Positions 4,404-36,115 of a stretch of DNA of 64,000 nt are shown here, piece by piece. Every line of letters begins with the position of its first letter. Position 1 is the stretch's first letter. The translations under genes and the position numbers were made by a program. Under the pieces are notes generated by a model. It searched no databases. It had not been told where the DNA came from and was given only the letters and a program-made list of their open reading frames with translations. Source of the DNA: a virus (lineage: Duplodnaviria > Heunggongvirae > Uroviricota > Caudoviricetes). The stretch covers positions 6,503 to 70,502 of IMG/VR virus record IMGVR_UViG_3300006217_000016. One strand, written 5' to 3'.

Positions 4404-4407
4404 GCAC

Positions 4408-4989: not shown

Positions 4990-5006
4990 ACTGTATCCCT
5001 CCCGTC

Positions 5007-5438: not shown

Positions 5439-5447
5439 TGGCTTCAC

Positions 5448-5951: not shown

Positions 5952-5962
5952 GATCTCACCTC

Positions 5963-6370: not shown

Positions 6371-6383
6371 ATGTATGACCTCC

Positions 6384-6956
6384 TTAATACCACTCCCAGT
6401 AGACAAGCGCAGAAGTCTCACTTGGCGCCTCTACAAGAATGTTGTCTTCCGGGAATTCCTTATTGAAAGCCGCAATCTGCTGTTCGTTCAGCACATAGTA
6501 ACCTGTATTCTCAACGGGTTCCGGGATGTTTTTGTGGAACCAGTCTTGAATGTCGTACGCCTTACGCCAGTAACATACCTCATCCCGGTCGCACACATAG
6601 CAGGTTTCCTCGCGGTCAATGGTGTATTTGCTCTCAATCAGCTCATCTGGGATGGTCACATGTTCGCTCGCGCCGTTTTTCTTTCCATAGATGCTTGTGG
6701 CGGAGGAACCGTTGCTGTCGCAACTCCAACCTCCGATATGAGCATCTTCCAGCCCGTAGTCCTCTCCGATCTTCTTCAAATCGTAGTAATGGTTGACAAC
6801 TCGGACTTCCACGCAGTACGGTGCAAGCTGCCGGTACATTGGAGACACGATGTCCTCACTGCTAAGTACAATGCCATCAAGCTCATCTCTGTCATACACT
6901 TTCCCTTTGTCGATAGCCGGTTTTTGGATACGAAACACATTCATATCAAGTCCCAC
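6384..6956 (-). CDS. Hypothetical protein
   Basis: 190 aa. GTG start with GGGAGG 8 nt upstream. Confidence 0.5.
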   Translation of the reverse strand: MGLDMNVFRIQKPAIDKGKVYDRDELDGIVLSSEDIVSPMYRQLAPYCVEVRVVNHYYDLKKIGEDYGLEDAHIGGWSCDSNGSSATSIYGKKNGASEHVTIPDELIESKYTIDREETCYVCDRDEVCYWRKAYDIQDWFHKNIPEPVENTGYYVLNEQQIAAFNKEFPEDNILVEAPSETSALVYWEWY

Positions 6957-7521
6957 GATGATTCCTCCCTTTCGTATTTGTGCGAAAAAAATACCCGAAC
7001 CGCCATGGATTTGGTAGTCCGGGTGCTGTTTCTTATGTTCGGCTGTCTTGTTCAGAGTCAGGGTTTCCTAATTCATTTCAACCAATTTCTTTGCTCATAC
7101 GAGTAAAATTATCTGAAGAGGACGGGTACATCCTCATTATAGAATTGCGTTTTCAAGACGCAGCAATCAAAGATTTTAATTAGAACGGCGTATATGGAGG
7201 CGTGTATCGTGCTCCGCAATGTTCGAGTTGGTGAGTTTTCGAGTAGATGCTTAGAACGCCGTAACGATTTGCGTCAAAAAAAGTACGATGAACAGGTAAC
7301 GCCTACTTTCTTGATATGGATTATCAGTCCACATTTATATATTTCAAGTCCAGACCATTACCTTAAAATGGCGGAATCTTCCTGTTTTTGAAAGATTTCA
7401 TTTGAGTTCTATGGCGCACTCAATTCGCCCCGCAGCACTACACTTCGTCTGTGGCTGAAGCGGTTGAAATTTCATATTCCACTCTGACCCTGAACGAGAC
7501 AGCCGAATGGCTGTCTCATGT

Positions 7522-8160
7522 TTACTCCGCAGGGTGGGCTGCTTCGATAAACTGTGCTACGATATCCTCGAAGGAGTCGTTGACACTGTATTCGGGATCG
7601 TATTCGACAACCAGTTCCACCATCAGCTTGTCGATACTGGTGGAAACCTCGTCAGACTTTGCAACCATGGCACGGCTCGCGTCTCTGACCTTGTTCCGGT
7701 CAAAGTCGATGGTCGTAACCTGCTTGACATCGTAGTTGTACGGGACCTGATTGCCCTCGCCGTTGAACTTGTAGGCGGTTCCACGGATAACGCTCTCGGA
7801 GGGACGCGCCTTGCTCATGTCGGCAAGGACTCCAGCCACCTTTTGGCGAGTTCGATTATTGGCCAGTTCCGCGTCAATGTCGATATCGCTGGTACGCTTT
7901 GCTGCGCTGATGGCGGCCGTGAGCTTCTCCTTCTCCTTCATCAGATGCTCAAGGAAACTCACCAGTTGATTGTTGGTACAGTCGAACGGACGATCAACGA
8001 CCACCTCGACCGTCTCGTCCTCCGCCTCGTGATTTGCCTTCTTACGCAGATGCACCTGCGTCGTCTTTGTGATGTAGTTGCGGTTGCCCAGATACATTGT
8101 GGTGCGGTCAACCATCCGGCTCAGAAAATTCTGATACCGAAAAGCTTCTTTCAGATACAT
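7522..8160 (-). CDS. Hypothetical protein
   Basis: 212 aa. RBS AGAGGAGGAAT upstream. Confidence 0.5.
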   Translation of the reverse strand: MYLKEAFRYQNFLSRMVDRTTMYLGNRNYITKTTQVHLRKKANHEAEDETVEVVVDRPFDCTNNQLVSFLEHLMKEKEKLTAAISAAKRTSDIDIDAELANNRTRQKVAGVLADMSKARPSESVIRGTAYKFNGEGNQVPYNYDVKQVTTIDFDRNKVRDASRAMVAKSDEVSTSIDKLMVELVVEYDPEYSVNDSFEDIVAQFIEAAHPAE

Positions 8161-8164
8161 CCTT

Positions 8165-8485
8165 TTATTCCTCCTCTGTTGTTGGCTGATATAGACCCAT
8201 GCGGATCTCGCTCAACTTGTAATATTCAACCAGCCCGTTGTAGGACTGCACCCCGATTTCATCCGGGTCGGCAACGGTTTGGAAACCTACTAGGAAATCG
8301 CCGTTACCCAGAGGGACGCACTCAATAACGAAGCCATAGTTTGCGCTTGAATCCTCGAACATACTCTCATCCATGAAAGCCTGCTGCTGTTCATATGGCG
8401 TATACACCTTCCGGTACACCCAGAATCGAAAGATGTCGTTCTGGTGAGATCGAAAGAAATCAGATACGGACTGAAATTCAACCAT
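8165..8485 (-). CDS. Hypothetical protein
   Basis: 106 aa. RBS TTGGAGGA upstream. Confidence 0.5.
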   Translation of the reverse strand: MVEFQSVSDFFRSHQNDIFRFWVYRKVYTPYEQQQAFMDESMFEDSSANYGFVIECVPLGNGDFLVGFQTVADPDEIGVQSYNGLVEYYKLSEIRMGLYQPTTEEE

Positions 8486-8927
8486 CCTGCTCTATCCTCC
8501 AATCTTTGTACGGTTCCACGCAACGCCGCAGCTCTTCCTCTATGACCATCTGATGAAACCGCATCCATAAAGGCTCGTCGATATTCTTGTCTCCGTAACC
8601 ACCTCTATACTTTTGGTCGGTTATATCCTGGTCAAGCACGTAAAGCGTTTTCTTGGTCACATGTGGAAGGAAGGGAATGATGAAGTCGATCACAACACCA
8701 GGCATGTATGTCTGGCGGCCGATGGCATACCGAACAGCGCAGTTGAGAATGCAGCCAAAGTTATCATTGTCTGCCCTAATATGCGGAACCATTGGTTTCT
8801 TTGGTGTACTCACAGCTTTATCCCCGTCTGCTTTGGTTTTCGTGCGGCGAGTGCTTTCTGCACACGCTTCTCGCGTACTTCTGGGTTCCAACCGCACTTG
8901 TAGCAGGGTCGAAACTCCCCGGAGCAC
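8478..8927 (-). CDS. Hypothetical protein, start uncertain
   Basis: ORF has an alternative GTG start. An internal ATG at 8792 (MVPHIRADND) is an alternative. A 42-aa CxxC ORF in another frame overlaps the 5' part. Confidence 0.35.
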   Translation of the reverse strand: MLRGVSTLLQVRLEPRSTREACAESTRRTKTKADGDKAVSTPKKPMVPHIRADNDNFGCILNCAVRYAIGRQTYMPGVVIDFIIPFLPHVTKKTLYVLDQDITDQKYRGGYGDKNIDEPLWMRFHQMVIEEELRRCVEPYKDWRIEQDG

Positions 8928-8964
8928 TCAATCATCTTGTTATGTACGCAGTTATTTGATTCCT

Positions 8965-9294
8965 TCATTCATCTACCTCCTCAAACAAGATACAATCCCG
9001 GACAATTCTGCGTTCCCAACTGAGGTCATCAAATGTTGGCCATCTTTTCCAATCGTACTGATCCGTACAGTCGCCGGTTATGTCATAGATATGGCCATCA
9101 ATCCGGCATCCGAAATGGTTGACAGGAGCATCATAGACGATTGCTACATTAGCATCCCACTCATACTGCTTGAAACGTTCGTATAAAATCTTGGCGAACC
9201 AATAGCACGCTCCGCAAGTGAAGATTTTGATGACCTCCTGATACTTCCCGTCGTTGGTAAAGCGAGAAATAAAAGACAAGACCTTTTGTTCCAT
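8965..9294 (-). CDS. Hypothetical protein
   Basis: 109 aa. ATG overlaps the upstream stop (TGATG coupling). Confidence 0.5.
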   Translation of the reverse strand: MEQKVLSFISRFTNDGKYQEVIKIFTCGACYWFAKILYERFKQYEWDANVAIVYDAPVNHFGCRIDGHIYDITGDCTDQYDWKRWPTFDDLSWERRIVRDCILFEEVDE

Positions 9295-9776
9295 CAGAAG
9301 TGATAGTCAACAACGCCGCCCAAATAGTACGTCCCCAGCGGCTCTACCGTGCGCATCCACTGCTGCATTGTATACAGTTCATCTTCATTCCACACATAAA
9401 AGCCGAATTGATCACTGTACGATTTTTTCAGGTCGTACATAGCCGAGTCAAGGCCGCAACAGACGGTTGATTTTGCAACAAATTGATTGAAGTCAATTTT
9501 TGACAGAGCATCGACCGCCTTCTTAAACTTCTCAAAATATTCGTCAAAGTAGTCGCCAATATCAATTTTGAATGTGAGCGTATCGCCGTCTCTGGTACAC
9601 ACCCGGCCGAAACTCGTACTCATCAACCATTCAAGTTCTTCATTGCGGTTCTCGTCGCTAACATCGGAAACATAATCAGCGATGGAACCAGTGAACCACT
9701 CTGGAATAGAATCTGCGCAGATGCGGTCTTCTACATCGACTGGCAAGCTCTCAATTTGAAAAATTCTGCTGTGCAT
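9294..9776 (-). CDS. Hypothetical protein
   Basis: 160 aa. RBS AAGGGTGA upstream. Confidence 0.5.
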   Translation of the reverse strand: MHSRIFQIESLPVDVEDRICADSIPEWFTGSIADYVSDVSDENRNEELEWLMSTSFGRVCTRDGDTLTFKIDIGDYFDEYFEKFKKAVDALSKIDFNQFVAKSTVCCGLDSAMYDLKKSYSDQFGFYVWNEDELYTMQQWMRTVEPLGTYYLGGVVDYHF

Positions 9777-9780
9777 CGTA

Positions 9781-10701
9781 TCACCCTTGTTTCTTCAGAT
9801 ATTGGAACATTTCTGTAATATCGTTTGTAATATCGTGCCGGATGGAGCAACAGGAATTCTTTGCGAATTTCCCCTCGACAGCGTCGATATACATGGAGGC
9901 GGACGTGAACTCTCCATCCATACCGTCGTCCCCCATGTAGAATTCCTTCCACTGATCCTCCGACATCAGCCGCCTTACATCGAGCTGGCGAATAGCAAGA
10001 TTGTCAAAGCTGACTGCTTTGAAGAAGCCATGTTTCACAGCGTCACCCAATGCGTTATAGAGTGCAACCTTTTTAGCCGCGATGTCTTCGCCGTGCCGCT
10101 CCAAGTTGTCCTCGCCGCGCCGGAAATCTTTATACCCGAGAATCAGAATCTTCAGGTTGTGACCAGCCAGCGACCTGAACCCCTTCATCGAAATCATACC
10201 GTTGATGATGTGAATGACAGCATTGGGGTAATACTTAACCATCTCAATAAAGCTGTCTGTGTCTTCCGTCCAGTCCAGATAGGAGATACCAAGCCCATAA
10301 ATTAACCCATGCTCCGTCAGGTATCGGAGCATGGGAAGATTTTTCATGAAATGCGTTTTGTTAACCGTGATATTGGGAATCAGCTTCCGCTCTTTGAGTT
10401 GCTGTAGAAATGGAATCAAATCTGGATGGGCGAGCGGATTGCCGCCGCCAATAGCAAGCTCAGTATAGGGGCGGATAGAATCCAAGAATGGCAGATGCAG
10501 GATGTCTCCATGTCTGCCATCCGGTCTTGAGTCCTCGTGACACATAGCGCATCCCATATCACACTGGTTTGTGATCTTGATGTCAAACGACTCTGGGAAC
10601 TCAGGCTCAAAGAAATCCAGGTCGTTTTCACGAACCTTCGTTCCGTCGCTATAGATTCTCACACGGTAATTCCCGTTGGTGTACTCGCCTAAAATACTCA
10701 C
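9781..10701 (-). CDS. Radical SAM domain protein
   Basis: CxxxCxxC motif (CDMGCAMC) near the N-terminus. GTG start with GGGAGG 9 nt upstream. Confidence 0.6.
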   Translation of the reverse strand: MSILGEYTNGNYRVRIYSDGTKVRENDLDFFEPEFPESFDIKITNQCDMGCAMCHEDSRPDGRHGDILHLPFLDSIRPYTELAIGGGNPLAHPDLIPFLQQLKERKLIPNITVNKTHFMKNLPMLRYLTEHGLIYGLGISYLDWTEDTDSFIEMVKYYPNAVIHIINGMISMKGFRSLAGHNLKILILGYKDFRRGEDNLERHGEDIAAKKVALYNALGDAVKHGFFKAVSFDNLAIRQLDVRRLMSEDQWKEFYMGDDGMDGEFTSASMYIDAVEGKFAKNSCCSIRHDITNDITEMFQYLKKQG

Positions 10702-10719
10702 GAAGGTTCCTCCCTTATC

Positions 10720-11016
10720 TTATCCGTCTCTCCCGTACTCACCAAACGCGACCATCTTGTCTCCACTCGGCGTAGTGAAGTAGTGGGAGTATGATTCCAT
10801 AGAACCCCAGTCACTGTAACCCAAGTGTCGATGATCCTGATATCGGTATTCCTCAGATTCGAGGAGCAGCTTTGAATACGGAACGAGTTTGCCATCGAAG
10901 CAGTCATACATCAGTTCATCCTGCTTGAATTTCTCGTATTCTTCCTGCGTGCAGATAACGATGCTATGCGTGGAGCTGCTGTTTGTTTCAAACACTCCAC
11001 ATCTTACTTGTCTCAT
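10720..11016 (-). CDS. Small protein with N-terminal MRQVR-VFETNSSSTHS motif (paralog A)
   Basis: Start at the internal ATG, preceded by AAAGGAGAG. The first ~20 aa are shared with the gene at 15550..16068. Confidence 0.55.
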   Translation of the reverse strand: MRQVRCGVFETNSSSTHSIVICTQEEYEKFKQDELMYDCFDGKLVPYSKLLLESEEYRYQDHRHLGYSDWGSMESYSHYFTTPSGDKMVAFGEYGRDG

Positions 11017-11038
11017 ACGCTCTCCTTTTTGATTGCGA

Positions 11039-11803
11039 TTAAAACTCACATTTTATAGGCCGCGATGTCACATTCTGAAAGAATGGCATCGGCAGGAGCT
11101 TGTGCAGGTTACGCTCGTTCATGGTCTTGATTTTACTGTCAAGCGAAGGATCTCCTGTTGTACCGACCATGATGTACTTGTCGAGCTGCGCATAGGTAAA
11201 ACCGAGATTGTCCTCGTCACTTTTGCCACACAGGCCGTCAGACGGCGTTTTGTCCACCAGTTCACGCGGAATGGGCAATTCGTACCCGATTTGCAGGACT
11301 TCACTCACCAGGAGACTGGCAAGAGGACTGAAATCTCCCGCACTGTCCCCAAACTTTGTGGAATATCCCACATAATCCTCTGAGCCATTACATGTGTTGG
11401 CTACCCGTCCGCCGTTCGGAAGCGACTGCGCAACCGCATACAGTGTTGCCATGCGGATGCGAGCTGGCAGATTTACCTTCGACTGCTCCGTTACAGGCAT
11501 ATAACCGCGAATTTCCAAAGTCAGACGCTCAATCGCTCCTCCGATATTGATAGTGCAGTGCTCAATGCCAAGCGTCTCCACTACCTTTCGGCTGTCCTTG
11601 ATGTCGTGCTGGACACCATTTGGCATCAAAACACCAAATACGCGGTCTTTGCCGAGCGCCTCAACGCACAGGGCGGCGACAATCGAGCTGTCTTTCCCGC
11701 CAGAAATTCCGACAACCGCACTGCACTCCGGGCCGTTTTCCTGAAAATAATCACGAATCCACTGAACGATTGCGTCTTTTGTGTGTTTTGGGTTTGGAAG
11801 CAT
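11039..11803 (-). CDS. nadE: NH3-dependent NAD+ synthetase
   Basis: PP-loop SGGKDS and overall NadE-like sequence. RBS GAGGGG upstream. Confidence 0.8.
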   Translation of the reverse strand: MLPNPKHTKDAIVQWIRDYFQENGPECSAVVGISGGKDSSIVAALCVEALGKDRVFGVLMPNGVQHDIKDSRKVVETLGIEHCTINIGGAIERLTLEIRGYMPVTEQSKVNLPARIRMATLYAVAQSLPNGGRVANTCNGSEDYVGYSTKFGDSAGDFSPLASLLVSEVLQIGYELPIPRELVDKTPSDGLCGKSDEDNLGFTYAQLDKYIMVGTTGDPSLDSKIKTMNERNLHKLLPMPFFQNVTSRPIKCEF

Positions 11804-11806
11804 AAA

Positions 11807-12246
11807 TTACCCCTCTTTTCTCCATAGTTCTACCGTGTATTGCTGGCCAAGAATCTTCTCAATGATTCCGAACACAACACCCCAGTTGCCTCCACCAAGA
11901 CCACATCCAATCTTGTATGGCATTGCAATCGTCTCGCCAGCAGGAACGATCTGTTTTAATTGGAGTAGACACTTTTCAAAAGCTGCATAGTCTGTGTACT
12001 GCCTTCCGTTATAACCGTACTGGTCTTGAGAAAACAGATTGCAAACAACCTGGGGATCAATATTCTTGCCATCAACAGGTGTGCGCCCTCATCGCACCTG
12101 ACCTTATACCATTTGTAAACTGTGGGGAATTTTGTCCTTATCTGCTTTGCGACGCCGCTTCCCATTTTCCCTTGGCAGTTCACTTGGTGGCAAATATAAT
12201 TTGATTTTGTAGAGAACAGGTCTCCATCAATTATTTTGATAGACAT
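11807..12246 (-). pseudogene. Macro-domain (ADP-ribose binding/processing) gene interrupted by a -1 frameshift near 12078-12081
   Basis: The N-terminal part (GDLFSTKSNYICHQVNCQGKMGSGVAKQIR...YKWYKVRCDEGAH) is in one frame. The C-terminal macro core (VDGKNIDPQVVCNLFSQDQYGYNGRQYTDYAAFEKC...AMPYKIGCGLGGGNWGVVFGIIEKIL...) continues in the -1 frame and stops at 11807-11809, just before the nadE ATG. The 5' ATG overlaps the NAMPT stop (ATGA). Confidence 0.6.
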
Positions 12247-13772
12247 CAAAATTCCCCTCCATGGAGATTCTGCCGAACCTCATCCAAGGTATAAATTTTG
12301 ATGAACTCCCCATTCTTGAAGACCACCCGTAATTCATTGTTCTCTTGAGCCTCAGCCCAAGTTAGGCCATCCTTATAGATGTAGTTATCACCGTTTTTGA
12401 TCACACGGCAGCAACCCCGCTGAGACTTCTTGAAGTGACCAGTGTCGGTCTTGGGATTCTTGAAAATCATGATGGGCTTGCCGTCTGCATCCTCGGCATA
12501 GGTGGCCTTAACGGCGATACCAAAGGTGTCACGGGTGTATGGTGCGTATGTCTTATTGACAACAGAGATACCGGAAACGGGATTGGGTTCACTTCGTTCC
12601 AAAGTCTCCAAGCACTGCATGGAGAAGGAACCGACGCCAAGGGAGACATTGTTAATGGCAAACCCGTTGGATTCCAGAATCTGATAGATTTGCTTGCATC
12701 GCTGGGGAGTAATGCTGTCACCATACAACGCCTTGACGTGCGGATTCAGCACTTTGAACCCCTTGCTGTTCACGGTGCCTCCAAAAATGTCCCACAGCTT
12801 GAACGCAGTCTTGGTCACGACCTCGACGGGGTCTCCACTGTCTCCACGGATAAGCAGACATCCATCGTGTGCCAGAATCTCGTCTTTGAGCTGCGGCAGG
12901 ATGTTGTCTACCAGATTCCAGTAATCGTAGCTGTCACTGACCATGGAGAAGTTCTGGTGAGGGTAAATCTCGGTCAGCAGACGGCGGATATGGGTGACCT
13001 CGTCACCGTCCATAGCGAAGTTGGAACACATCACGCTGTGTTCGGTGGACAAAGCGCCATAGGCTACCGGCTCCTTAGCACAGTCGCAGTGATAGTTGTC
13101 CTCCAGCCACAGGATTGCGGGAACAGTGGCGGTGTTCAGGAAGCTGAGACAGAAAGCGGCAGAACTTTTGGTGGCGCTCTCCACGCTCTCTTGACCACGC
13201 ATGGAAAAATCGCCAAGGAGTCTGGCGCGGACCACGCTGTCATCACAGGTGCGATCTGTAAACTCGTTGACGATTTGGCGGTAGCGATAGCCGACCTCGG
13301 CGGAAACTTGGGTGTGCCACATGGTGCAGGACAGCATGGTCTCAATGGAGTTCACCAGCCACACAAAGTTCGGATGGGTGTTGGAAATCTCAATTTGCGG
13401 CACCTTGATATTGGTACGCACACCCTCCGGCACGGCCCGAATCTCTAGGGGAAGATAGCCCAAGTCATGAAGAGCTTTCAGGCGCTTTTCTCCAACACCA
13501 TCGGTGTTGATGGTGGCGTTGAGAACCCGCTTATACTCGCTGAGGACATCCTCCCAGTCCTCTTGGAAGAAAAAGTGGTTGAAGGCATCAACGAGGTACT
13601 CCTTGATGAACGCCTGGAGGCCAAACATCGTGACCTTATCTGTGTCTCCCAGCCGGGTCATGCGGGGAGTGTAGTAGGAGACCATCTTGGTCAGGGTCTG
13701 CGGATACTGCTCTGCGTGGGCCGTCTTGTAAAAGTCCAGGCAAAGCAGTGGATTGTAGCAACAACCACTCAT
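12246..13772 (-). CDS. nadV: Nicotinamide phosphoribosyltransferase (NAMPT/NadV family). A NARP1-type Namat (NAMPT/PncB homolog) cannot be excluded.
   Basis: The N-terminus aligns well with NAMPT (DFYKTAHAEQYP vs DSYKVTHYKQYP). The C-terminal VFKNGEFIKIYTLDEVRQN also matches. Confidence 0.75.
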   Translation of the reverse strand: MSGCCYNPLLCLDFYKTAHAEQYPQTLTKMVSYYTPRMTRLGDTDKVTMFGLQAFIKEYLVDAFNHFFFQEDWEDVLSEYKRVLNATINTDGVGEKRLKALHDLGYLPLEIRAVPEGVRTNIKVPQIEISNTHPNFVWLVNSIETMLSCTMWHTQVSAEVGYRYRQIVNEFTDRTCDDSVVRARLLGDFSMRGQESVESATKSSAAFCLSFLNTATVPAILWLEDNYHCDCAKEPVAYGALSTEHSVMCSNFAMDGDEVTHIRRLLTEIYPHQNFSMVSDSYDYWNLVDNILPQLKDEILAHDGCLLIRGDSGDPVEVVTKTAFKLWDIFGGTVNSKGFKVLNPHVKALYGDSITPQRCKQIYQILESNGFAINNVSLGVGSFSMQCLETLERSEPNPVSGISVVNKTYAPYTRDTFGIAVKATYAEDADGKPIMIFKNPKTDTGHFKKSQRGCCRVIKNGDNYIYKDGLTWAEAQENNELRVVFKNGEFIKIYTLDEVRQNLHGGEF

Positions 13773-17594: not shown

Positions 17595-17669
17595 TGGTGA
17601 CCCGGACGGGAGTCGAACCCGCGTTACCAGAGTGAAGGTCTGGTGTCTTAACCGCTTGACTACCGGGCC
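17595..17669 (-). tRNA. tRNA, probably Glu (UUC) with an unusual C33
   Basis: Clean cloverleaf. Acceptor GGCCCGG/CCGGGTC, T-loop TTCGACT, CCA encoded. Anticodon loop CCUUCAC. Confidence 0.6.
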
Positions 17670-17672
17670 GTA

Positions 17673-17748
17673 TGGTCTGAGTGGGGAGGATCGAACTCCC
17701 GGCCTCGTGATCCCAAATCACGCGCTCTGCCAACTGAGCTACACCCAG
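17673..17748 (-). tRNA. tRNA-Pro (UGG)
   Basis: Acceptor CTGGGTG/CACTCAG with C1-G72. D-arm GCTCAGTTGGCAGAGC. Anticodon loop TTTGGGA. CCA encoded. Confidence 0.75.
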
Positions 17749-17851
17749 ATATTGTGCGGGCGGGGATTTTCACCCCGCATAGGTAAGATTATGTACCTGC
17801 TACCGAGCTTGTCGCCCATCGGCTACTTCACCGAACCCAAACAGGAGGACA

Positions 17852-17930
17852 ACGATGGACTCGAACCATTGTCTTACCCTACCTCTCGTTATAGCGTCTA
17901 CCTATTCCGCCACCGCACATTTTGTATTGT
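17852..17930 (-). tRNA. Degenerate tRNA-like remnant (T-loop GGTTCGAGTCC; no consistent acceptor or anticodon arm)
   Basis: T-arm-like sequence found, but hand-folding failed. Adjacent GCGGGG-ATTTTCA-CCCCGC hairpin at 17764-17782. Confidence 0.2.
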
Positions 17931-18039
17931 GTAGCTCTAAAAACAGGACTCCCGCAGGCGAGCGTCCCTGTAAACCTGCTACACTCGGTTTTGAGCGTGC
18001 CCATCCCGCAGGGCGGCGGGGTGCTCCGTGTACTTTGGA

Positions 18040-18074
18040 GCAAAGAAAAAGATCGTGCCGAGAACTACGGCACG
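18040..18074 (-). terminator. Rho-independent terminator just 3' of tRNA-Gly
   Basis: Hairpin CGTGCCG-AGAACTA-CGGCACG followed by a U-run on the minus strand. Confidence 0.55.
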
Positions 18075-18075
18075 C

Positions 18076-18151
18076 TGGAGTGAGAGACGGGACTTGAACC
18101 CGCAGCTTCCGACTTGGAAGGACGGCACTCTGCCAGTTGAGTTACTCCCAC
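18076..18151 (-). tRNA. tRNA-Gly (UCC)
   Basis: Acceptor GTGGGAG/CTCTCAC. D-stem ACTC/GAGT. Anticodon loop CTTCCAA. T-arm GCGGGTTCAAGTCCCGT. CCA encoded. Confidence 0.75.
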
Positions 18152-18154
18152 AGA

Positions 18155-18573
18155 TGGTGGAGCCGGCGGGAATCGAACCCGCGTCCGAAATTCCTACATG
18201 AGCAAGACCTTTTTACGCAATAGGTTTCCTTTTAGGTGGATGCCTTATGGCGGGGCACCAAGATGGAATCCAAATCTACCCCAGGGCGTACCAGTTAAGT
18301 ACACCTCCACCACCTTGTCTTTTTGAACAGATTACAAGGAAAACTGTTTTTCTGGCGTATCCTCGACCGCAGGTACTTACCCAGCCAGAGGTGTACCGTT
18401 TTGGAATCCTGCCGACAGTTAAGCGGCGACCCTCTCTGCCATGAAGGCGGCGAAAGCGGGATGGATCATAACAACACTCATATCATTGTCATTTCATTTT
18501 TTGTTTAGCCTTAAGGCGGTCTCTACCTGCGAATCTTACTCTCTCAGAACCCCGTCGAAACCTTTACGGCCCC
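18155..18573 (-). ncRNA. ssrA: tmRNA (SsrA), about 419 nt
   Basis: 5' end GGGGCCGUAAAGGUUUCGACGGGG and 3' end AUGUAGGAAUUUCGGACGCGGGUUCGAUUCCCGCCGGCUCCACCA are near-identical to bacterial tmRNA termini. An internal frame ends ...AFAAFMAERVAA-UAA (stop near 18419-18421), consistent with a degradation tag. Confidence 0.8.
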
Positions 18574-18603
18574 GTAAAAGAGGCCCGGCGTATAGCCGGG
18601 CCG
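18574..18603 (-). terminator. Hairpin GGCCCGGC-GTATA-GCCGGGCC plus U-run immediately 5' of tmRNA (terminator-like or processing element)
   Basis: Perfect 8-bp stem followed by UCUUUU on the minus strand. Confidence 0.4.
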
Positions 18604-18677
18604 TTCCCCACATTGTTATAGACCGCATGGGTGCGCTGTCTTATTAAATACCATGTTTGCACGTTCCCCTTTCGGGG

Positions 18678-18753
18678 TGGAGCTGGTAACAGGAGTCGAA
18701 CCCGCGACACTCGGAGTACAAAACCGATGCTCTACCAACTGAGCTATACCAGC
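18678..18753 (-). tRNA. tRNA-Thr (UGU)
   Basis: Acceptor GCTGGTA/TACCAGC. D-arm GCTCAGTTGGTAGAGC. Anticodon loop TTTGTAC. CCA encoded. Confidence 0.75.
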
Positions 18754-18756
18754 AAA

Positions 18757-18832
18757 TGGAGCTGATGCACGGACTCGAACCGCGAACCTAAGCTTTACGA
18801 AAGCCTCGCTCTGCCATTAGAGCTACATCAGC
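18757..18832 (-). tRNA. tRNA-Thr (CGU)
   Basis: Acceptor GCTGATG/CATCAGC. Anticodon loop TTCGTAA. T-loop TTCGAGT. CCA encoded. Confidence 0.7.
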
Positions 18833-18836
18833 ATGT

Positions 18837-18911
18837 TGGCTGGGGTGACTGGATTCGAACCAGCGAATGAGGGAGTCAAAGTCCCTTGCCTTGCCGCTTG
18901 GCGACACCCCA
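18837..18911 (-). tRNA. tRNA-Gln (UUG)
   Basis: U1-A72 acceptor (TGGGGTG/CACCCCA). Anticodon loop CTTTGAC. T-loop TTCGAAT. CCA encoded. Confidence 0.7.
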
Positions 18912-21643: not shown

Positions 21644-22783
21644 TTATGCGGCCAAATCCTCATGGATGGTACGCATTACGTCCGTTTGATATTTTTCGTT
21701 GTTGTACTTGATGACCTCGTCAACATACTTTTCTTCAACCATCCGGTAGTAGTTGATAAGGCCGCGCAAAACCTGAACATCGTGCAGTTCCCAGACAATT
21801 CCGTTCTTACGGTCGAGGATGTAGTTGCTGATCATTGCACGAAAACGCTGCTTGTTCTTGTGACCGATGGTGATCTCATTGTCCTTATTGAGCATGAGCC
21901 CGAGGTTCCAATTACTGCCGGCTCTGGAACCATACCTCGTCTTCTCATCCTTGATCTTGAACGGCGCATGGAAATCATCCAGCGTCTGATTGATGAAGTC
22001 GATGACCTTATTGTAGTCAAACTCTCTCCGGCTTGAAATTAGAGAGTCGTCTGCGTATCTGGTGTAAACGAACGACTGCCCGTTAAAATCACGCAGGGTA
22101 TTGTATACCTTGTGATCAAGGGGGATCATCATCAGATTTGTGAGCATCGGAGAAATCGGCGTGCCCTGCGGCAATCCGCCATGAAGAAAACAGAGGTTGA
22201 GTGCCTTGTCCAGTGCTGCTCTGCCCCGTTCTGACTTGACAATCTCGCTGAACGGGAAAATCAAAGAGAGCGAATACCGAAGGAATACCAGCGTTGTGTC
22301 CCCAAAAAAGTTCGAGAAATCCGTCTTTAAGAACCAATGACTGTCATTCCTCTGGTGACGTTTGATGGCGTCAATGGTGGAACGATTCTTAACATAGGCA
22401 AAGGCGGAGGTGTGGTACAGCGCAAACATCTTGGTCTCAAACAAAGTCTTCAGATTCCGAAGCGCCGTCATCAGTTCTGGCACAGGGGCATTGATCTCAC
22501 GCAGGCCGCCGGACTTCTTCGGAATATGGAATGTGGTATAGAGGGCTTCTCTCGGAACGGCATACAGCTCGGCATTTTGTTCGCAAAAACTCTCCAGAGC
22601 GGAGACCATACCGGCGAAATCGAACCGATCCAGAAACTGTGGCTTGAGTCGCTGTGCGAAATGCGTTCTGGTATTGGTGCTGTTTGAAGTTATCATAGAC
22701 TGCATGTTGACCTCACCAGATATGATTTCCTCAAATGATATCTGATGGTATGCAGGCGATTGCATGACGGTTATGTATGGCAT
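21644..22783 (-). CDS. Reverse transcriptase, retron/group-II-like (QGxxxSP and YADD motifs), 379 aa
   Basis: Motifs IPKKSGGLREINAP (RT1), FLKTDFSNFF (RT3), LPQGTPISP (RT4), YTRYADD (RT5). RBS AGGAGG upstream. Confidence 0.85.
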   Translation of the reverse strand: MPYITVMQSPAYHQISFEEIISGEVNMQSMITSNSTNTRTHFAQRLKPQFLDRFDFAGMVSALESFCEQNAELYAVPREALYTTFHIPKKSGGLREINAPVPELMTALRNLKTLFETKMFALYHTSAFAYVKNRSTIDAIKRHQRNDSHWFLKTDFSNFFGDTTLVFLRYSLSLIFPFSEIVKSERGRAALDKALNLCFLHGGLPQGTPISPMLTNLMMIPLDHKVYNTLRDFNGQSFVYTRYADDSLISSRREFDYNKVIDFINQTLDDFHAPFKIKDEKTRYGSRAGSNWNLGLMLNKDNEITIGHKNKQRFRAMISNYILDRKNGIVWELHDVQVLRGLINYYRMVEEKYVDEVIKYNNEKYQTDVMRTIHEDLAA

Positions 22784-23079
22784 ATTTTTAATACCTCCTG
22801 ATGTCTGTATTCTGGTATACAGTAGGTTGAGGAATTCAGGATGCGATGGGTACTTGAGAGCTGGGACTGAGTGCGGGCTCGGTGGGTAATCTGGTGAGTG
22901 ATTTGCGGCGGTCCGATGGTTCTTGGGGTCGCCATCTGTCTTCCTGTTTGCTGTCCGTCACCTTTCTGGTCGAGATGTCAAGAGTTCTTTGCGTATTTGG
23001 AGCAGTAGAAAACAGTTTATTTATTACCTCTTGACCTCGGTGGCGGGCAGGCGCCTTCAGATTCCGCCTCCGGGCGGGG

Positions 23080-23124
23080 TGTCCCTTCTCCCAGCCATGC
23101 GCAACTCTGATTTACAATACAGAG
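23080..23124. repeat. Conserved hairpin repeat, copy D, with upstream block CCCTTCTCCCAGCCATGCGCA
   Basis: CTCTG-ATTTACAATA-CAGAG in the RT upstream spacer. Confidence 0.65.
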
Positions 23125-23227
23125 CACCCTCAGAATAACTCTGAAAGTAATGCAATACAGACTATATGGAAGGGGCAGCGGCAACCAAAGCCACTGCCCC
23201 TATAGAACTATCGTAAAACGTGATGCC

Positions 23228-23899
23228 TTACACGGCGATCACGTCGAATTCAAAAGCATCCACAAGAATCATCTTGCGGAGTTTCTCGCCCTTCACGAAG
23301 TTGATGAAGTTGGCTACGCCGTAGGCAACGATCGTTCGCACCGTCGGAACAACCGACAGTGTGATATTGCAGGCAGAAACGGGCGTCGCCTCTTTTGCCT
23401 CATCATGAGAGAACGCCATGCTGTCGATAAAGTTCTCCACCATCTTCTTGTCGCTCCAGTCAGCGGCATAGTGCTGGGCGTCCGTCAGCCGCATCCGGAA
23501 GTCGAACATCCCCTTGACGAACGTGTTCTCCTTACAGGAGGTGGCGATCTCCCGGCGGAGGTCAATGTTGTCCACCGCCAGGAACACATAACCGGAGAGA
23601 CGCTGGCCTGTCCAGCCCTCTTTGACCAGCTTCAGATCGGGGGCGCAGTCCGGATTGATCTCGGTGAGATACTCAGCCAAAGCATCAACCTTGGCCTTGC
23701 CGATATCCGTATTCCGGAACATCTGGTTGGCAATGTTGTGGGCTTCTACGGTATCGAAGTCATACAGCGTGATTTTCGTAATGCCGAACCGCACCAGATT
23801 CTCAGCGACCGTGGAACCAATCGCTCCACAGCCGATGATATGAATCCGCGATTCGAGCATATCCGGCTTGAAGAATTCGTAGGACTTCGCCAAATCCAT
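23228..23899 (-). CDS. E1-like ThiF/MoeB-family protein
   Basis: Rossmann motif IHIIGCGAIGSTVAENL followed by YDFDTVEAHNIANQ. RBS AAAGGAGAG. Confidence 0.65.
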   Translation of the reverse strand: MDLAKSYEFFKPDMLESRIHIIGCGAIGSTVAENLVRFGITKITLYDFDTVEAHNIANQMFRNTDIGKAKVDALAEYLTEINPDCAPDLKLVKEGWTGQRLSGYVFLAVDNIDLRREIATSCKENTFVKGMFDFRMRLTDAQHYAADWSDKKMVENFIDSMAFSHDEAKEATPVSACNITLSVVPTVRTIVAYGVANFINFVKGEKLRKMILVDAFEFDVIAV

Positions 23900-23916: not shown

Positions 23917-24789
23917 TTACTGTCCGAGGTATAGGCGGTCATAGGGATCGTCTTCGTCGAATTGGTAGTCGGAAAAGGACCGGCCAATGCCGGTATCACC
24001 TCCGTTTACCTTCGGTTTTGTTTTGACTCCGACGACGCTCGCACCGGCCGTCGCCGCCGGCGTTGTTGTCTGACTGATGGGTGTGACGACCCGCGTCTGC
24101 GTCTGCTGATAGGTTCCCTGAAAACCGGTGACAGGCTTATAGGTTCTGTTGGTGACGATCTCCTTGGCGCTGCTGATGAAAGCCTGAAGATCCACGCCGA
24201 CATCTCCAATATACACATCAACATCTGCCGTGTCGTACAGGGTGTTGTTCTTCAGATCGAAGATGCGGACAAAGTGCTCGTACCGCTTGTTCCAGATCAT
24301 GAAGATGTAGTAGTCGTCATCGGAGATTTGCTCCAGAATCTTCTCCTGGTGAGTTGTGTCCACACCAGAGGGAGACACGCCCATATTGACGTGGCTGTGT
24401 CCTTGCATCCGGATGTTATTGAACACATCATCATCAAAGGAGTAAAGCCACGTCTGGTACGCCTCTTGATCGGTGTTGACCGTTGCGCCGGTAACAACCT
24501 GCGGGTATACCAAAATGTCGGTGATGTGGAAGATGGACGGATCCTGCTCATCACGGTGAACCACGCCGTGCCACGCGACCTCGTCGTTGAACTGCTGAAT
24601 GAGCGAGTTCATCTTGGCGAAGGCAATCGAGGACAGGTAGACAGTTGCCCGGTCGTCATCGCCCTCCCACTTGAACGTCCGGCTGTATTCCAGCTTTCCG
24701 TCAAACATCTTGGTGGACTTCACCTTTGCGATGAACTCCTCCTGAATTTTTTGCAGCAGCTCGTCCGTGAGCTTAATGGGCTTACTCAT
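23917..24789 (-). CDS. JAB/MPN (JAMM) metallopeptidase-domain protein
   Basis: JAMM motif HSHVNMGVSPSGVD (HxHx7Sx2D) with upstream acidic residues. Start at MSKP with AGGAGGAGAG upstream. The longer ORF begins with a K/R-rich stretch. Confidence 0.65.
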   Translation of the reverse strand: MSKPIKLTDELLQKIQEEFIAKVKSTKMFDGKLEYSRTFKWEGDDDRATVYLSSIAFAKMNSLIQQFNDEVAWHGVVHRDEQDPSIFHITDILVYPQVVTGATVNTDQEAYQTWLYSFDDDVFNNIRMQGHSHVNMGVSPSGVDTTHQEKILEQISDDDYYIFMIWNKRYEHFVRIFDLKNNTLYDTADVDVYIGDVGVDLQAFISSAKEIVTNRTYKPVTGFQGTYQQTQTRVVTPISQTTTPAATAGASVVGVKTKPKVNGGDTGIGRSFSDYQFDEDDPYDRLYLGQ

Positions 24790-26275
24790 GGCTCTCCTCC
24801 TGTTCTTTTTCTTTCTTCGCCTTGACATCTTGTTCCTCCAACCACAATACGGCCTCAAACGGCGTCTTGGTCGTACCGTCGGGCATTTCGATTACCTTAC
24901 CGATCCTGTTCGAGAACAGCAACTGCGTCATCTTGCCGGTTGTTGCGCTCTCCTGAACATTGACGCTCTTTGCCGACTGAACACAAGCAGCTACCGCGCC
25001 GACATAATCCCGGTTACGCATAGATTGGCGAATTGTCGCCTCATTTCCACCAAGGCAGTGAAACGCCTGGATGTGCTGGTTCGGCGTGTGATCCATGATG
25101 ATATCCGACGGGAAATCGTATCCGCTAATCCCGGCGTACCTGCCGTTATCGAAGTTCAGCGAATATGCGGCGCAAATGCGAATCTTCATCGTCTCTTTGA
25201 CGAAAATCTCCGTCATCAGACGCTTAATGCGCTCTACCGTCATATTTTCGTTGTCACGATATTCATAGATGTAGCTACGGTTATTCTGAATGACGGACTC
25301 CGCTGCGTCAGGATCGAAGTTTGCAACCGTGGTGGTTACAATGAACTTGATTTCGCCATTGTATACGCTGACCAGATGCAGCGAATTGTTGCATAGGAAG
25401 TAGTCCAAAAGCTCGCTGCTCTCCGCGCCGCCTCCGTGTGTGATTTTATCGACCAGACCGCACTCCTGCGTTCTCAGGTCGTCCATCTGCTGGTAGTAAT
25501 TGGAGAAAGTGCTCTCCAAATCACGCATCCTGCGATCCATATCGTTGATCTGGCTGCGGACGGACTCCAGCTTCCGGCGGTCAAAGTGTGTTTCAAAGCC
25601 GGTCAACTGATTGCGGATAACCTGTGACCGGAAGTCAAACCGCTTGGCGAACTCCTGAATCTTCGTTTCATAGCTGGGGGCGTAACGCTTTGTGAGCGTC
25701 TTGACGATCTCAATCTCCTCGTCAGTCATCGGATTGGACTCGAAGTACCACGGGAAGTAGCGGGAAATCAGAGACTCCAGCATGTGCCACCGCTTCATGT
25801 TCATCTTTTCCGTGAAGATGATGGTGTTGCGGTACTCCTCGTTCACATAGACCTTGGCGCGGAACTTTGCGTCGCTCTCAATCCATGCGGACAGATCCGC
25901 CAGGAGCTTGTATCCAGAGACTGTCTTTGGAACACCTTCAACGAGTTTCTCGAAGCAGGTTGTGTTGCTCTCGTCGCTCCCCTCAAATGAATGGATGAGC
26001 AAAATGCCGGTTGAACCATCCATAATCGGAGTTCGGTTAAAGAAAGCCCTGACGCAGTCTCTCGGAGACGAGCCAGATAACTGCCCGGAACTGTAGTCTG
26101 TGCTTTTATATCGCAGTGTGATTGACTCCTCTTTCGGAACCCTGCTATACAGCAAAGCTCTCAAGGTCGCAACGAACGACTCGTCATTGCGGAACTTATC
26201 TCCGCCGATATTCGGGAATACGGTCGATGCGATCTCATTGGTGAGAGTCAGACCAGTGATTTCTTTTGAGAACAT
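24782..26275 (-). CDS. Large protein with a C-terminal UBC/E2-like signature
   Basis: C-terminal stretch YDFPSDIIMDHTPNQHIQAFHCLGG resembles the UBC HPN...Cys active-site region. RBS AAAAGGAG. Overlaps the JAB start by 8 nt. Confidence 0.45.
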   Translation of the reverse strand: MFSKEITGLTLTNEIASTVFPNIGGDKFRNDESFVATLRALLYSRVPKEESITLRYKSTDYSSGQLSGSSPRDCVRAFFNRTPIMDGSTGILLIHSFEGSDESNTTCFEKLVEGVPKTVSGYKLLADLSAWIESDAKFRAKVYVNEEYRNTIIFTEKMNMKRWHMLESLISRYFPWYFESNPMTDEEIEIVKTLTKRYAPSYETKIQEFAKRFDFRSQVIRNQLTGFETHFDRRKLESVRSQINDMDRRMRDLESTFSNYYQQMDDLRTQECGLVDKITHGGGAESSELLDYFLCNNSLHLVSVYNGEIKFIVTTTVANFDPDAAESVIQNNRSYIYEYRDNENMTVERIKRLMTEIFVKETMKIRICAAYSLNFDNGRYAGISGYDFPSDIIMDHTPNQHIQAFHCLGGNEATIRQSMRNRDYVGAVAACVQSAKSVNVQESATTGKMTQLLFSNRIGKVIEMPDGTTKTPFEAVLWLEEQDVKAKKEKEQEESHE

Positions 26276-26364: not shown

Positions 26365-26619
26365 TCAGGCGTTGTCAGCCTTGACGACGGAGATCAGGAA
26401 GCACTTGTCGTGGCCGGGCTCGCCGGTGTAGCCCATCTCGGCGAAGGTCTGATCCAGCTTGGCACCGGTGACGGTCTCGCCGTCCAGGGACAGCATACCC
26501 ACGGAGTAGTCGATGCCGGTCTCGCCCTGGGTGCTCTCCAGAGCCTGGCGGATGGTGGTGTTGGGGTTCAGGTTGAAACGGGCGCGCTTCAGGTTGTTAC
26601 CGATAGTGACGTTAATCAT
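26365..26619 (-). CDS. Small beta-grasp-like (ThiS/MoaD/Ubl-like) candidate, 84 aa, no terminal GG
   Basis: Length and hydrophobic pattern resemble a beta-grasp fold. Ends KADNA. RBS AAGGAGAA. Confidence 0.35.
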   Translation of the reverse strand: MINVTIGNNLKRARFNLNPNTTIRQALESTQGETGIDYSVGMLSLDGETVTGAKLDQTFAEMGYTGEPGHDKCFLISVVKADNA

Positions 26620-26706: not shown

Positions 26707-27108
26707 TTAGATGACGGTGATGTTAGCCATGACCTCGGCGTTCTCAGCCTCGACCTCGGCCAGGGCATCGTCGATGCCGGCCTCCACCTTGTTCAGGCGA
26801 ACCACGGCCTTGCCGACCAGCTTGGCAGCATAGTCGATCACGTTCTCAGTCCCAGCGGGGACGGGAATCGTGATGGTGGCCAGCTTCGCCTCGTCGTGGG
26901 TCTCGGAGGCGAAAGTCGCGCCGTTCTGGTTGATGCTGCCGGCAGCAGCGGCGGTCTCCACGCGGAAGATTTCCTCCTTCTTACCGTTCTCATCGGTCTC
27001 GATGAGACGAAGAGCCTTCGGGCGGTACTCCTCCAGCGTCTTCAGAGCCTTGAGGCTCTTGCCGCTGGTGACGATGATCGCGTCACCAGCAATGGTGATC
27101 TTTGCCAT
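26707..27108 (-). CDS. Hypothetical protein (start at MAKITIAGD)
   Basis: The upstream extension of the ORF would translate the poly-G tract and terminator. RBS AAAGGATG. Confidence 0.45.
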   Translation of the reverse strand: MAKITIAGDAIIVTSGKSLKALKTLEEYRPKALRLIETDENGKKEEIFRVETAAAAGSINQNGATFASETHDEAKLATITIPVPAGTENVIDYAAKLVGKAVVRLNKVEAGIDDALAEVEAENAEVMANITVI

Positions 27109-27221
27109 ACTGATACATCCTTTCTGTTCGGGCTTTGCCCTTAATATGTACCCCGTTTGCTCACCCCCCCCCATCGGGGGCTCCCCAGCCTGAACCACGA
27201 GGAGGTGGGGCCGATCAGGCC

Positions 27222-27254
27222 GCAAAGAACCCCGTAACTTTTCAGCTACGGGGC
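27222..27254 (-). terminator. Rho-independent terminator after P4
   Basis: CCCCGUA-GCUGAAAAGU-UACGGGG hairpin followed by UUCUUU on the minus strand. Confidence 0.6.
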
Positions 27255-28836: not shown

Positions 28837-28922
28837 TGGTGTCGATGATGGGATTTGAACCCATACGGCGTTAGAGCCAACAGGGTTTGAGCCTGTCATG
28901 TCTACTATTCCATCACATCGAC
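28837..28922 (-). tRNA. tRNA-Leu (CAA)
   Basis: Acceptor GTCGATG/CATCGAC. Anticodon loop CTCAAAC. Long variable arm. T-arm ATGGGTTCAAATCCCAT. CCA encoded. Confidence 0.7.
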
Positions 28923-28925
28923 ATA

Positions 28926-29012
28926 TGGTGTGGGCGGCGGGAATTGAACCCGCACATCGAACCCGATATAGAGGCTTAAACTCCATGTGTCTTCCAATTC
29001 CACCACGCCCAC
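28926..29012 (-). tRNA. tRNA-Leu (UAA)
   Basis: Acceptor GTGGGCG/CGCCCAC. Anticodon loop TTTAAGC. Long variable arm. T-arm GCGGGTTCAATTCCCGC. CCA encoded. Confidence 0.7.
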
Positions 29013-31267: not shown

Positions 31268-31343
31268 TGGTGGAGATAGTCGGGATCGAACCGGCGACCT
31301 CCTGCTTGCAAGGCAGGCGCTCTCCCATCTGAGCTATATCCCC
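31268..31343 (-). tRNA. tRNA-Ala (UGC)
   Basis: Acceptor GGGGATA/TATCTCC with G3-U70. Anticodon loop CTTGCAA. CCA encoded. Confidence 0.8.
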
Positions 31344-31348
31344 ATATT

Positions 31349-31434
31349 AGAGAGTGGTGGGAATCGAACCCACGCAGCGCATATCCGGTTGACAGGCATG
31401 TATCTGCCCCGCTCTGCCACTGAGCTACACTCTC
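31349..31434 (-). tRNA. Atypical tRNA (anticodon arm folds only with a 6-nt loop GATACA; about 20-nt unstructured variable region)
   Basis: Perfect acceptor GAGAGTG/CACTCTC. D-arm GCTCAGTGGCAGAGC. T-arm GTGGGTTCGATTCCCAC. No CCA. Anticodon not assignable. Confidence 0.45.
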
Positions 31435-36042: not shown

Positions 36043-36115
36043 TAGCGTGGACCGGGCTTGAACCGGCGACACACGGATTATCAATCCGCAGCTCTACCTA
36101 CTGAGCTACCACGCC
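36043..36115 (-). tRNA. tRNA-Ile (GAU)
   Basis: Acceptor GGCGTGG/CCACGCT. D-arm GCTCAGTAGGTAGAGC. Anticodon loop TTGATAA. T-loop TTCAAGC. No CCA encoded. Confidence 0.7.

What the first reader, a model, noticed from the sequence alone, without database searches (positions are those of the whole stretch)
24782..26275. E2-like active-site signature in the 497-aa protein
The stretch YDFPSDIIMDHTPNQHIQAFHCLGG parallels the UBC core (Y-P-F-x-PP-x-V-x-F...HPNI...G-x-ICL) with an HxPN variant and a conserved Cys. The other 400 residues have no recognisable domain. This would be an unusually large E2 or an E2 fused to a substrate-recognition module.
Basis: inference. Interest (0 to 1): 0.6.

Follow-up and report, generated by a model that had tools for sequence, protein, structure and literature searches.

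The report
Giant E2-like enzyme in gut phage
The 497-residue protein is most likely the conjugating (E2-type) enzyme of a complete ubiquitin-like tagging pathway that a large family of uncultured gut and rumen phages carries as a fixed gene block, which I found described nowhere.

Summary

Context decides the case. The gene sits in a conserved block: 133-aa protein, 84-aa ubiquitin-like protein ending ...KADNA, this protein, an intact JAMM peptidase, and a 223-aa ThiF/Cap2-type E1 with a conserved Cys. JAB and E1 follow it in 94 of 94 related loci. One relative's modifier ends ...KADGG-CC.

The host genome is a large siphovirus-like phage, probably of Clostridia. I read the protein as an E2 fused to a coiled coil and a Rossmann-like domain. 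It is a new variant of bacterial ubiquitin-like conjugation; the target is unknown.

The parts
27147..27223 (-). Candidate HDV-like self-cleaving ribozyme, 39 nt upstream of the first gene of the block
   Evidence: Rfam RF00094 at 34.8 bits (gathering score 50), matching the full model, E 0.0013 in a local scan. A match of 32.2 bits lies at the same relative place in L004. It is below the curated threshold, so it remains a candidate.
26707..27108 (-). p133, a 133-aa protein of unknown fold and the first gene of the block. In some relatives it is fused to the C-terminus of the ubiquitin-like protein.
   Evidence: Present upstream in 87/88 loci. Ubl-p133 fusions occur in L056, L057 and L072. No Pfam or PDB relative was found.
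26365..26619 (-). 84-aa ubiquitin-like modifier ending ...VVKADNA
   Evidence: N83 and A84 are invariant in 18 diverse homologues. The tail follows the pattern KAD-[N/S/G]-[A/G] with 0-3 extra residues; L049 ends ...KADGGCC. Sequence hints of a beta-grasp fold are weak: the ubiquitin part of eS31 matches in register at E 1.2, and TUG-UBL1 matches at E 0.07. Its fold was not modelled.
24782..26275 (-). The 497-aa protein (p497), the proposed E2-type conjugating enzyme
25796..26275 (-). p497 residues 1-160: alpha/beta (Rossmann-like) domain with near-invariant D31 and R39; H164, also near-invariant, lies just after it
25433..25795 (-). p497 residues 161-281: helical linker and one long helix (227-280), probably a coiled-coil stalk
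   Evidence: AF2 model. Sequence hits here are to coiled-coil proteins only.
24866..25432 (-). p497 residues 282-470: UBC/RWD-fold domain with a two-helix insert between strands 2 and 3
25046..25120 (-). The proposed active-site motif is P398-N399-x-H401-x5-C407-x-G409; the Cys407 codon is 25055-25057.
23917..24789 (-). 290-aa JAMM/MPN+ metallopeptidase (JAB). Its ATG overlaps the end of p497 by 8 nt.
   Evidence: E68, H129-S-H131, S139 and D142 are invariant in 70 sequences. PADLOC JAB E 0.0045. Prok-JAB matches 3 of 9 members. The only PDB sequence hits are Rpn11, E about 0.08, across the MPN core. The overlap was read from the sequence.
23228..23899 (-). 223-aa ThiF/MoeB-type E1 adenylating enzyme
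   Evidence: Pfam ThiF E 1.6e-26. The best PADLOC models are Cap2-type 'E1-E2', E 1.1e-20. GCGxxG and D110 are invariant; C177 is kept in 63/64 (one gap), in a motif that I align from memory with MoeB Cys187.
22803..23162 (-). Retron-like non-coding RNA region bounded by inverted repeats a1 (23154-23162) and a2 (22803-22811)
   Evidence: A conserved 5' block and covarying a1/a2 arms appear in 14 aligned loci. Inverted repeats are longer than in shuffles and sit at constant positions in 87 loci.
21644..22783 (-). 379-aa retron-type reverse transcriptase, always downstream of the block
   Evidence: NCBIfam retron_St85_RT E 2e-51, below its cut-off; PADLOC RT_II-A E 6e-47. Present in 76/77 loci with enough flank. 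A functional tie to the ubiquitin-like genes is not shown.

Best explanation
p497 is the E2-type carrier of a phage-encoded ubiquitin-like conjugation cascade. Five co-oriented genes, p133, Ubl, p497, JAB and E1, form the unit. Proposed steps, all inferred: (1) the 223-aa ThiF/Cap2-like E1 adenylates the C-terminal Ala (in some relatives Gly) of the 84-aa modifier and may hold it on Cys177; (2) the modifier passes as a thioester to Cys407 of p497, in a UBC-fold domain where Pro398-Asn399 and His401 stand in for the E2 HPN element; (3) p497, probably paired through its long helix, uses its N-terminal Rossmann-like domain to choose the acceptor and transfers the modifier without a separate E3, like an E2/E3 hybrid; (4) the JAMM peptidase trims modifier precursors (1-3 extra residues, or Ubl-p133 fusions) and may remove conjugates. 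The target is unknown. Shown here are the predicted fold, the residue conservation, the gene block and its conservation, and the phage origin. No chemical step has been shown.
Confidence: 0.6

Rival explanations
1. p497 is a non-catalytic scaffold: a coiled-coil dimer ending in an RWD-type domain, as in kinetochore proteins. It would bind or position the modifier, E1 or JAB, while the conjugation or other chemistry is done by E1 alone.
Against: The strongest conservation in 306 sequences is a Cys with neighbouring Asn and His, in a roughly 25-residue loop between the sheet and helix 2. To my knowledge RWD domains lack both that loop and the Cys. E2 enzymes align over more residues (97-105) than RWD domains do (67-95).
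Confidence: 0.15
2. The block is a sulphur-carrier or small-molecule pathway, like MoaD/MoeB, ThiS/ThiF, CysO/Mec+ or TtuB. The modifier would be adenylated and thiocarboxylated. Cys407 would carry a persulphide, and the N-terminal MoaB/MogA-like domain would bind a nucleotide or cofactor substrate.
Against: To my knowledge, known sulphur carriers end in Gly-Gly; this modifier ends in Asn-Ala. The block contains no rhodanese, cysteine desulphurase, PP-loop ATPase or cofactor-synthesis gene. All ThiF, MoeB and related models score far below their cut-offs. A UBC-fold partner is the mark of conjugation systems, not of sulphur transfer (PMC10557695).
Confidence: 0.1
3. The invariant Cys, His and Asn form a different catalytic centre on a UBC-like scaffold, for example a peptidase, a transglutaminase-type ligase, or an enzyme acting on the neighbouring retron-like RNA/DNA. 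The gene only travels with the E1/JAB genes.
For: The conserved His lies between the Asn and the Cys, unlike any described E2 motif. The RT and its RNA are next to the block in 76/77 loci. The N-terminal domain has its own near-invariant D31, R39 and H164.
Against: I know of no such enzyme built on this fold. A hairpin (23204-23171) stands between the E1 gene and the retron-like RNA, and an extra gene is inserted there in many loci. Both suggest separate transcription units.
Confidence: 0.1

Closest known systems
Bil (BilABCD) bacterial ISG15-like conjugation systems (operon type 6d of Iyer et al. 2006)
   Different: Bil is a bacterial anti-phage defence, whereas this block is fixed in a phage lineage. 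BilD is a large E1 with inactive and active adenylation domains plus a Cys domain; here the E1 has 223 aa. The BilB chain matched has 134 residues; p497 has 497, with an extra domain and a stalk. BilA ends in Gly, this modifier in Ala. No sequence similarity is detectable.
Type II CBASS Cap2 (E1-E2 fusion) and Cap3 (JAB)
   Different: Cap2 fuses E2 and E1 in one chain. Its substrate is the cGAS-like enzyme, not a small beta-grasp protein. It is a bacterial defence system.
Canonical eukaryotic UBC-family E2 enzymes
   Same: The order of structural elements matches: helix, four-strand meander, active-site loop, three helices. Pro-Asn lies 8 residues before the Cys, as in HPN-x7-Cys. The Cys is followed by Leu in 58% of the family, recalling the Cys-Leu of canonical E2s.
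   Different: The His of HPN is not conserved. Two helices are inserted between strands 2 and 3. The loop after the Cys is short. No profile similarity is found.
RWD domains at the end of coiled coils (Knl1, Spc24/Spc25, Ctf19/Mcm21)
   Different: To my knowledge they are non-catalytic and have neither the invariant Cys nor the long loop that carries it.
Large E2/E3 hybrid enzymes (UBE2O, BIRC6)
   Different: They are eukaryotic and unrelated in their accessory domains. The analogy is functional only and was not tested.
Phage lambda/T1 tail-assembly TAPI (Ubl) and TAPK (JAB + NlpC/P60)
   Same: A phage-encoded ubiquitin-like domain next to a JAB peptidase (PMC1779556).
   Different: That block has no E1 and no E2, and lies in the tail module. 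The present block lies in the early/replication arm, on the strand opposite the structural genes.

Membership tests
UBC-fold E2 conjugating enzymes | UBC alpha/beta fold (helix 1, four-strand antiparallel meander, helices 2-4) | tested here: met
UBC-fold E2 conjugating enzymes | Conserved catalytic Cys in the loop between strand 4 and helix 2 | tested here: inconclusive
   C407 is invariant (305/306 plus one gap) and lies in that loop according to the model's secondary structure. The tools give no coordinates, so residue-level superposition on an E2 catalytic Cys could not be done.
UBC-fold E2 conjugating enzymes | HPN tripeptide 7-8 residues before the Cys | tested here: inconclusive
   Pro398 (97%) and Asn399 (100%) are present with a spacing of 8 to the Cys. 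The His is not conserved (H396 19%, Tyr 49%). An invariant H401 follows instead.
UBC-fold E2 conjugating enzymes | Match to a curated E2 sequence model (Pfam UQ_con or the Prok-E2 families) | tested here: not met
   No E2 family appears even at E up to 10 in 20 members. hhalign against six canonical E2s gives probability 0.1%.
UBC-fold E2 conjugating enzymes | Forms an E1-dependent thioester with the modifier | not testable with these tools
   This needs biochemistry.
Ubiquitin-like conjugation operon (Ubl + E1 + E2 + deconjugating peptidase) | ThiF/MoeB-type adenylating E1 with nucleotide-binding and Mg-binding residues | tested here: met
   Pfam ThiF E 1.6e-26. GCGxxG and D110 are invariant, and C177 is kept in 63/64.
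Ubiquitin-like conjugation operon (Ubl + E1 + E2 + deconjugating peptidase) | JAMM/MPN+ peptidase with the motif E...HxH-x7-S-xx-D | tested here: met
   E68, H129, H131, S139 and D142 are invariant in 70 sequences. Weak profile hits go to JAB, Prok-JAB and Rpn11.
Ubiquitin-like conjugation operon (Ubl + E1 + E2 + deconjugating peptidase) | Small beta-grasp modifier with a conserved small C-terminal residue, often followed by a removable extension | tested here: inconclusive
   The tail KAD-[N/S/G]-[A/G] with 0-3 extra residues is conserved, and one relative has GG-CC.
Bil (BilABCD) systems | BilB-type E2 (CEHH motif family), BilD-type E1 with IAD, AAD and CYS domains, Ubl ending in Gly | tested here: not met
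   PADLOC has no Bil-type hit for p497 or the Ubl. The E1 has 223 aa and a single domain. The Ubl ends in Ala. The motif is PN-x-H-x5-C rather than C...H (PMC10557695).
PRTRC (ParB-related, ThiF-related cassette) of plasmids and ICEs | NCBIfam PRTRC protein models reach their cut-offs | tested here: not met
   The ThiF scores 35.6 bits on TIGR03736 against a cut-off of 144.75. None of the other block proteins has an NCBIfam hit to a PRTRC family.
Retron (for the neighbouring RT) | Retron-clade RT preceded by a non-coding RNA bounded by inverted repeats a1/a2 | tested here: inconclusive
   The RT scores 175 bits on retron_St85_RT, below the cut-off of 235. Covarying a1/a2 arms and a conserved 5' block are present. 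No RT-DNA or effector relation was tested.

The most novel reading that the evidence does not exclude
A self-contained ubiquitin-like conjugation cascade is a core, lineage-wide module of an abundant group of gut and rumen phages of Clostridia, not a bacterial defence. Its parts are a modifier ending in Ala, a minimal E1, a dimeric E2 with a built-in substrate-binding domain, and a JAMM peptidase. The virus would use it to tag host or viral molecules. The acceptor could be non-protein, bound by the Rossmann-like N-terminal domain, or could be linked to the adjacent retron-like RT/RNA. The operon mRNA may be processed by an HDV-like ribozyme.
Probability: 0.45. Interest if true: 0.85.

Novelty: new variant of a known kind. 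Interest (0 to 1): 0.68.

Why it matters
The ubiquitin-like conjugation systems of bacteria characterised so far (type II CBASS, Bil, Bub) are read as host defences against phages. Here the same kind of machinery belongs to the virus. It is fixed in its gene order across relatives as distant as 24% identity. The family counts about 2,400 clusters at 50% identity and has no Pfam, PHROGs or NCBIfam model. If it is active, phages tag proteins or other molecules for their own ends. It would also add three things: an E2 architecture with a stalk and an extra domain, an Asn-Ala modifier terminus, and a very small E1 that may show a minimal E1-E2 hand-off. The family is large enough to deserve a curated model either way.

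Tried and rejected
- **Family libraries.** Pfam, NCBIfam, PHROGs and PADLOC on p497 gave nothing meaningful. Pfam at E up to 10 on 20 isolated C-terminal domains gave no E2 family.
- **PDB sequence searches.** Profiles of the full protein and of the domain hit only coiled-coil noise.
- **hhalign against six canonical E2 sequences typed from memory.** Probability 0.1%.
- **Foldseek.** The full model against the PDB gave no hit better than E 0.25. The AlphaFold-database library was not available.
- **Cultured phages.** blastn found nothing, and tblastn found one unannotated faecal contig.
- **p133.** No Pfam or PDB relative.
- **Possible analogues in other phages.**
  - Xanthomonas jumbo phage PhiXhv-12 has a 140-aa protein ending ...ASGG, an 892-aa protein with 'IHPH...SLCLGS', then a ThiF.
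  - Dulem virus 41 has a 373-aa protein with '...CCLG', then a JAMM protein, then a ThiF.
  - Both share gene order and a Cys-Leu-Gly motif with the window's block. hhalign is not significant, and the 892-aa protein has no homologues for building a profile.
  - I keep them as leads, not evidence.
- **PRTRC cassette membership.** Rejected on NCBIfam scores.
- **Literature.** Searches for a phage-encoded E1/E2/JAB/Ubl block, or one linked to a reverse transcriptase, found no description. The library lacks most subscription-journal papers.

Full report
**Observation.** The minus-strand ORF 24782..26275 encodes 497 aa. The quoted stretch is residues 386-410, nt 25046-25120. The overlapping plus-strand ORFs (23962-24825, 24767-25396) are probably shadows, because the homologues found are all relatives of the minus-strand products. 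A word-index search found 95 clusters of full-length relatives of about 500 aa with no Pfam domain. An exhaustive profile search found 2,432 clusters at 50% identity with E at most 0.001; the 150 listed are nearly all 470-530 aa. In 306 aligned sequences the best-conserved positions of the whole protein are P398 (97%), N399, H401 and C407 (all effectively 100%) and G409 (99%). The 'YDFP' part is only 40-56% conserved. So the second half of the stretch is a true family signature and the first half is not.

**Fold.** AlphaFold2 with a 48-sequence alignment gives pLDDT 90.9 (pTM 0.53, so the domain arrangement is uncertain). The model has three parts: an alpha/beta domain (about 1-160), a helical region with one 54-residue helix (227-280), and a C-terminal alpha/beta domain.
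- Residues 282-497 modelled alone give pLDDT 95.2 and pTM 0.89.
- The order of elements is helix (284-295), strands 299-305 and 308-316, a two-helix insert (322-359), strands 364-374 and 380-382, then a loop of about 25 residues that carries YxFP, Pro-Asn, a short helix with H401, and C407, followed by three helices.
- That is the E2 order. The Asn-to-Cys spacing of 8 equals UBE2D2 N77-C85.
- The published superposition of BilB on UBE2D2 (3.2 A over 99 residues; PMC10557695) is no better than these matches.
- Against this, Foldseek finds nothing and no sequence method sees an E2. I also could not inspect a residue-level superposition.

**Context.** All neighbours lie on the minus strand.
- *Upstream modifier.* An 84-aa protein (26365-26619) has a tail KAD-[N/S/G]-[A/G] that is conserved. 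N83 and A84 are invariant in 18 diverse homologues. Most copies end exactly there; others carry 1-3 extra residues. One relative ends ...KADGG-CC, and three are fused to the next protein, p133. This is the pattern of a ubiquitin-like modifier with a removable extension. Its fold is supported only by weak hints.
- *Peptidase.* Overlapping the p497 stop by 8 nt is a 290-aa protein (23917-24789) with an invariant JAMM motif (E68, H129-S-H131, S139, D142). Its only PDB sequence hits are Rpn11.
- *E1.* A 223-aa ThiF-family E1 (23228-23899) follows, with Pfam E 1.6e-26. It is closest to Cap2-type E1 models, and GCGxxG, D110 and C177 are conserved.
- *Conservation of the block.* In loci from IMG/VR, GTDB genomes, assemblies and GenBank, JAB and ThiF follow p497 in 94/94 cases and p133 precedes it in 87/88. 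The Ubl is found by BLAST in 84/88 and by eye in three of the remaining four; L070 shows none. The order holds in the most distant relative, at 24% identity.
- *Precedent for the Ala terminus.* Cap2 conjugates substrates that end in Gly or Ala (PMC10097602).

**Origin.** The window is a phage. It has a terminase, a portal and an exonuclease on the plus-strand arm, NAMPT on the minus-strand arm, and 12 tRNAs and a tmRNA. The portal is 33-40% identical to those of large siphoviruses of Bacillota such as Brevibacillus phage Sundance. Related contigs are 60-137 kb and appear to come from human-gut and rumen metagenomes. MAG bins that hold the gene are mostly Oscillospiraceae, Ruminococcaceae and other Clostridia. 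No source gives the protein a name.

**Mechanism, inferred.** The E1 adenylates the terminal Ala or Gly of the modifier. The modifier moves to C407 of p497. P398-N399 and H401 would play the role of the HPN element. The stalk dimerises the enzyme, and the N-terminal Rossmann-like domain, with its own near-invariant D31, R39 and H164, selects the acceptor. JAB matures precursors and may reverse conjugation. Stem-loops after p133 and after the Ubl gene would fit a higher output of the modifier than of the enzymes, but this was not tested. My confidence is about 0.6. The rivals are a non-catalytic RWD scaffold, a sulphur-carrier or small-molecule pathway, and a different Cys-His enzyme on this fold.

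**Comparison with known systems.** The block works like Bil and like type II CBASS Cap2/Cap3, but it is a member of neither. The E1 architecture, the E2 size and motif, the modifier terminus and the curated models all differ. It also fails the PRTRC models. Literature searches found no description of a phage-encoded block of this kind. I rate it a new variant of a known kind.

**Side findings.**
- A retron-type RT (21644-22783) follows the block in 76/77 loci. It is preceded by a conserved non-coding region bounded by covarying inverted repeats (a1 23154-23162, a2 22803-22811).
- A hairpin after the E1 gene, and an extra gene inserted there in many loci, suggest a separate transcription unit.
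- A sub-threshold HDV-like ribozyme lies 39 nt upstream of p133, and again at the same place in a relative.

Noticed in passing
window 21644-23162 (-): A retron-type reverse transcriptase (379 aa) is preceded by a non-coding region of about 360 nt. That region has a conserved 5' block and covarying inverted repeats a1/a2 (GTCTGTATT / AATACAGAC in the window). The RT is conserved next to the ubiquitin-like block in 76/77 related phage loci. A retron-like element as a fixed phage gene is unusual.
   Followed up: partly
window 27147-27223 (-); L004 5992-6088: An HDV-like ribozyme candidate (RF00094, 34.8 and 32.2 bits, below the gathering score of 50) lies just upstream of the first gene of the block, in the window and in its closest relative.
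   Followed up: partly
L005 309-372, 2023-2089, 4752-4812; L065 1897-1948 and 72-144; L008 1721-1792: Related phage loci carry several twister-P1 ribozyme matches (56-65 bits, just under the gathering score of 67.2) and RAGATH-16 RNAs (85 bits in L008, above threshold). This phage lineage is rich in self-cleaving ribozymes.
   Followed up: no
window 17598-18911, 28840-29012, 31271-31434, 36043-36115 (-); 49115-49185 (+): The phage encodes a tmRNA (18155-18573, 96 bits) and 12 tRNAs.
   Followed up: no
L056 6462-7082, L057 6443-7063, L072 5040-5738: In three relatives the ubiquitin-like protein is fused in frame to p133 (...KADNA-linker-p133), with the gene order reversed. This ties p133 to the pathway, as a co-translated partner or as a target.
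   Followed up: partly
L083 (Xanthomonas phage PhiXhv-12) 1736-5612: A cultured jumbo phage has a 140-aa protein ending ...KASGG, then an 892-aa protein with a coiled coil and 'IHPH...SLCLGS', then a ThiF 31% identical to the window's. This may be an analogous phage conjugation block. Homology is not demonstrable.
   Followed up: partly
L101 (Dulem virus 41) 2197-5627: Another gut phage has the same gene order: a 227-aa protein, a 373-aa protein with '...CCLG', a JAMM protein (HSHHRMGAFFSGED), and a ThiF. hhalign to p497 is not significant.
   Followed up: partly
L084 (MT835544.1, reverse complement) about 1900-12300: A run of at least ten paralogous small proteins (about 65-100 aa) all end in a Cys-rich tail of the form C-x-C-x-S-L-L (for example ...ECFCVSLL, ...CCCSSLL). 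Their function is unknown.
   Followed up: no
window 12246-13772 (-): A phage-encoded nicotinamide phosphoribosyltransferase (PHROG 448, E 1e-156).
   Followed up: no
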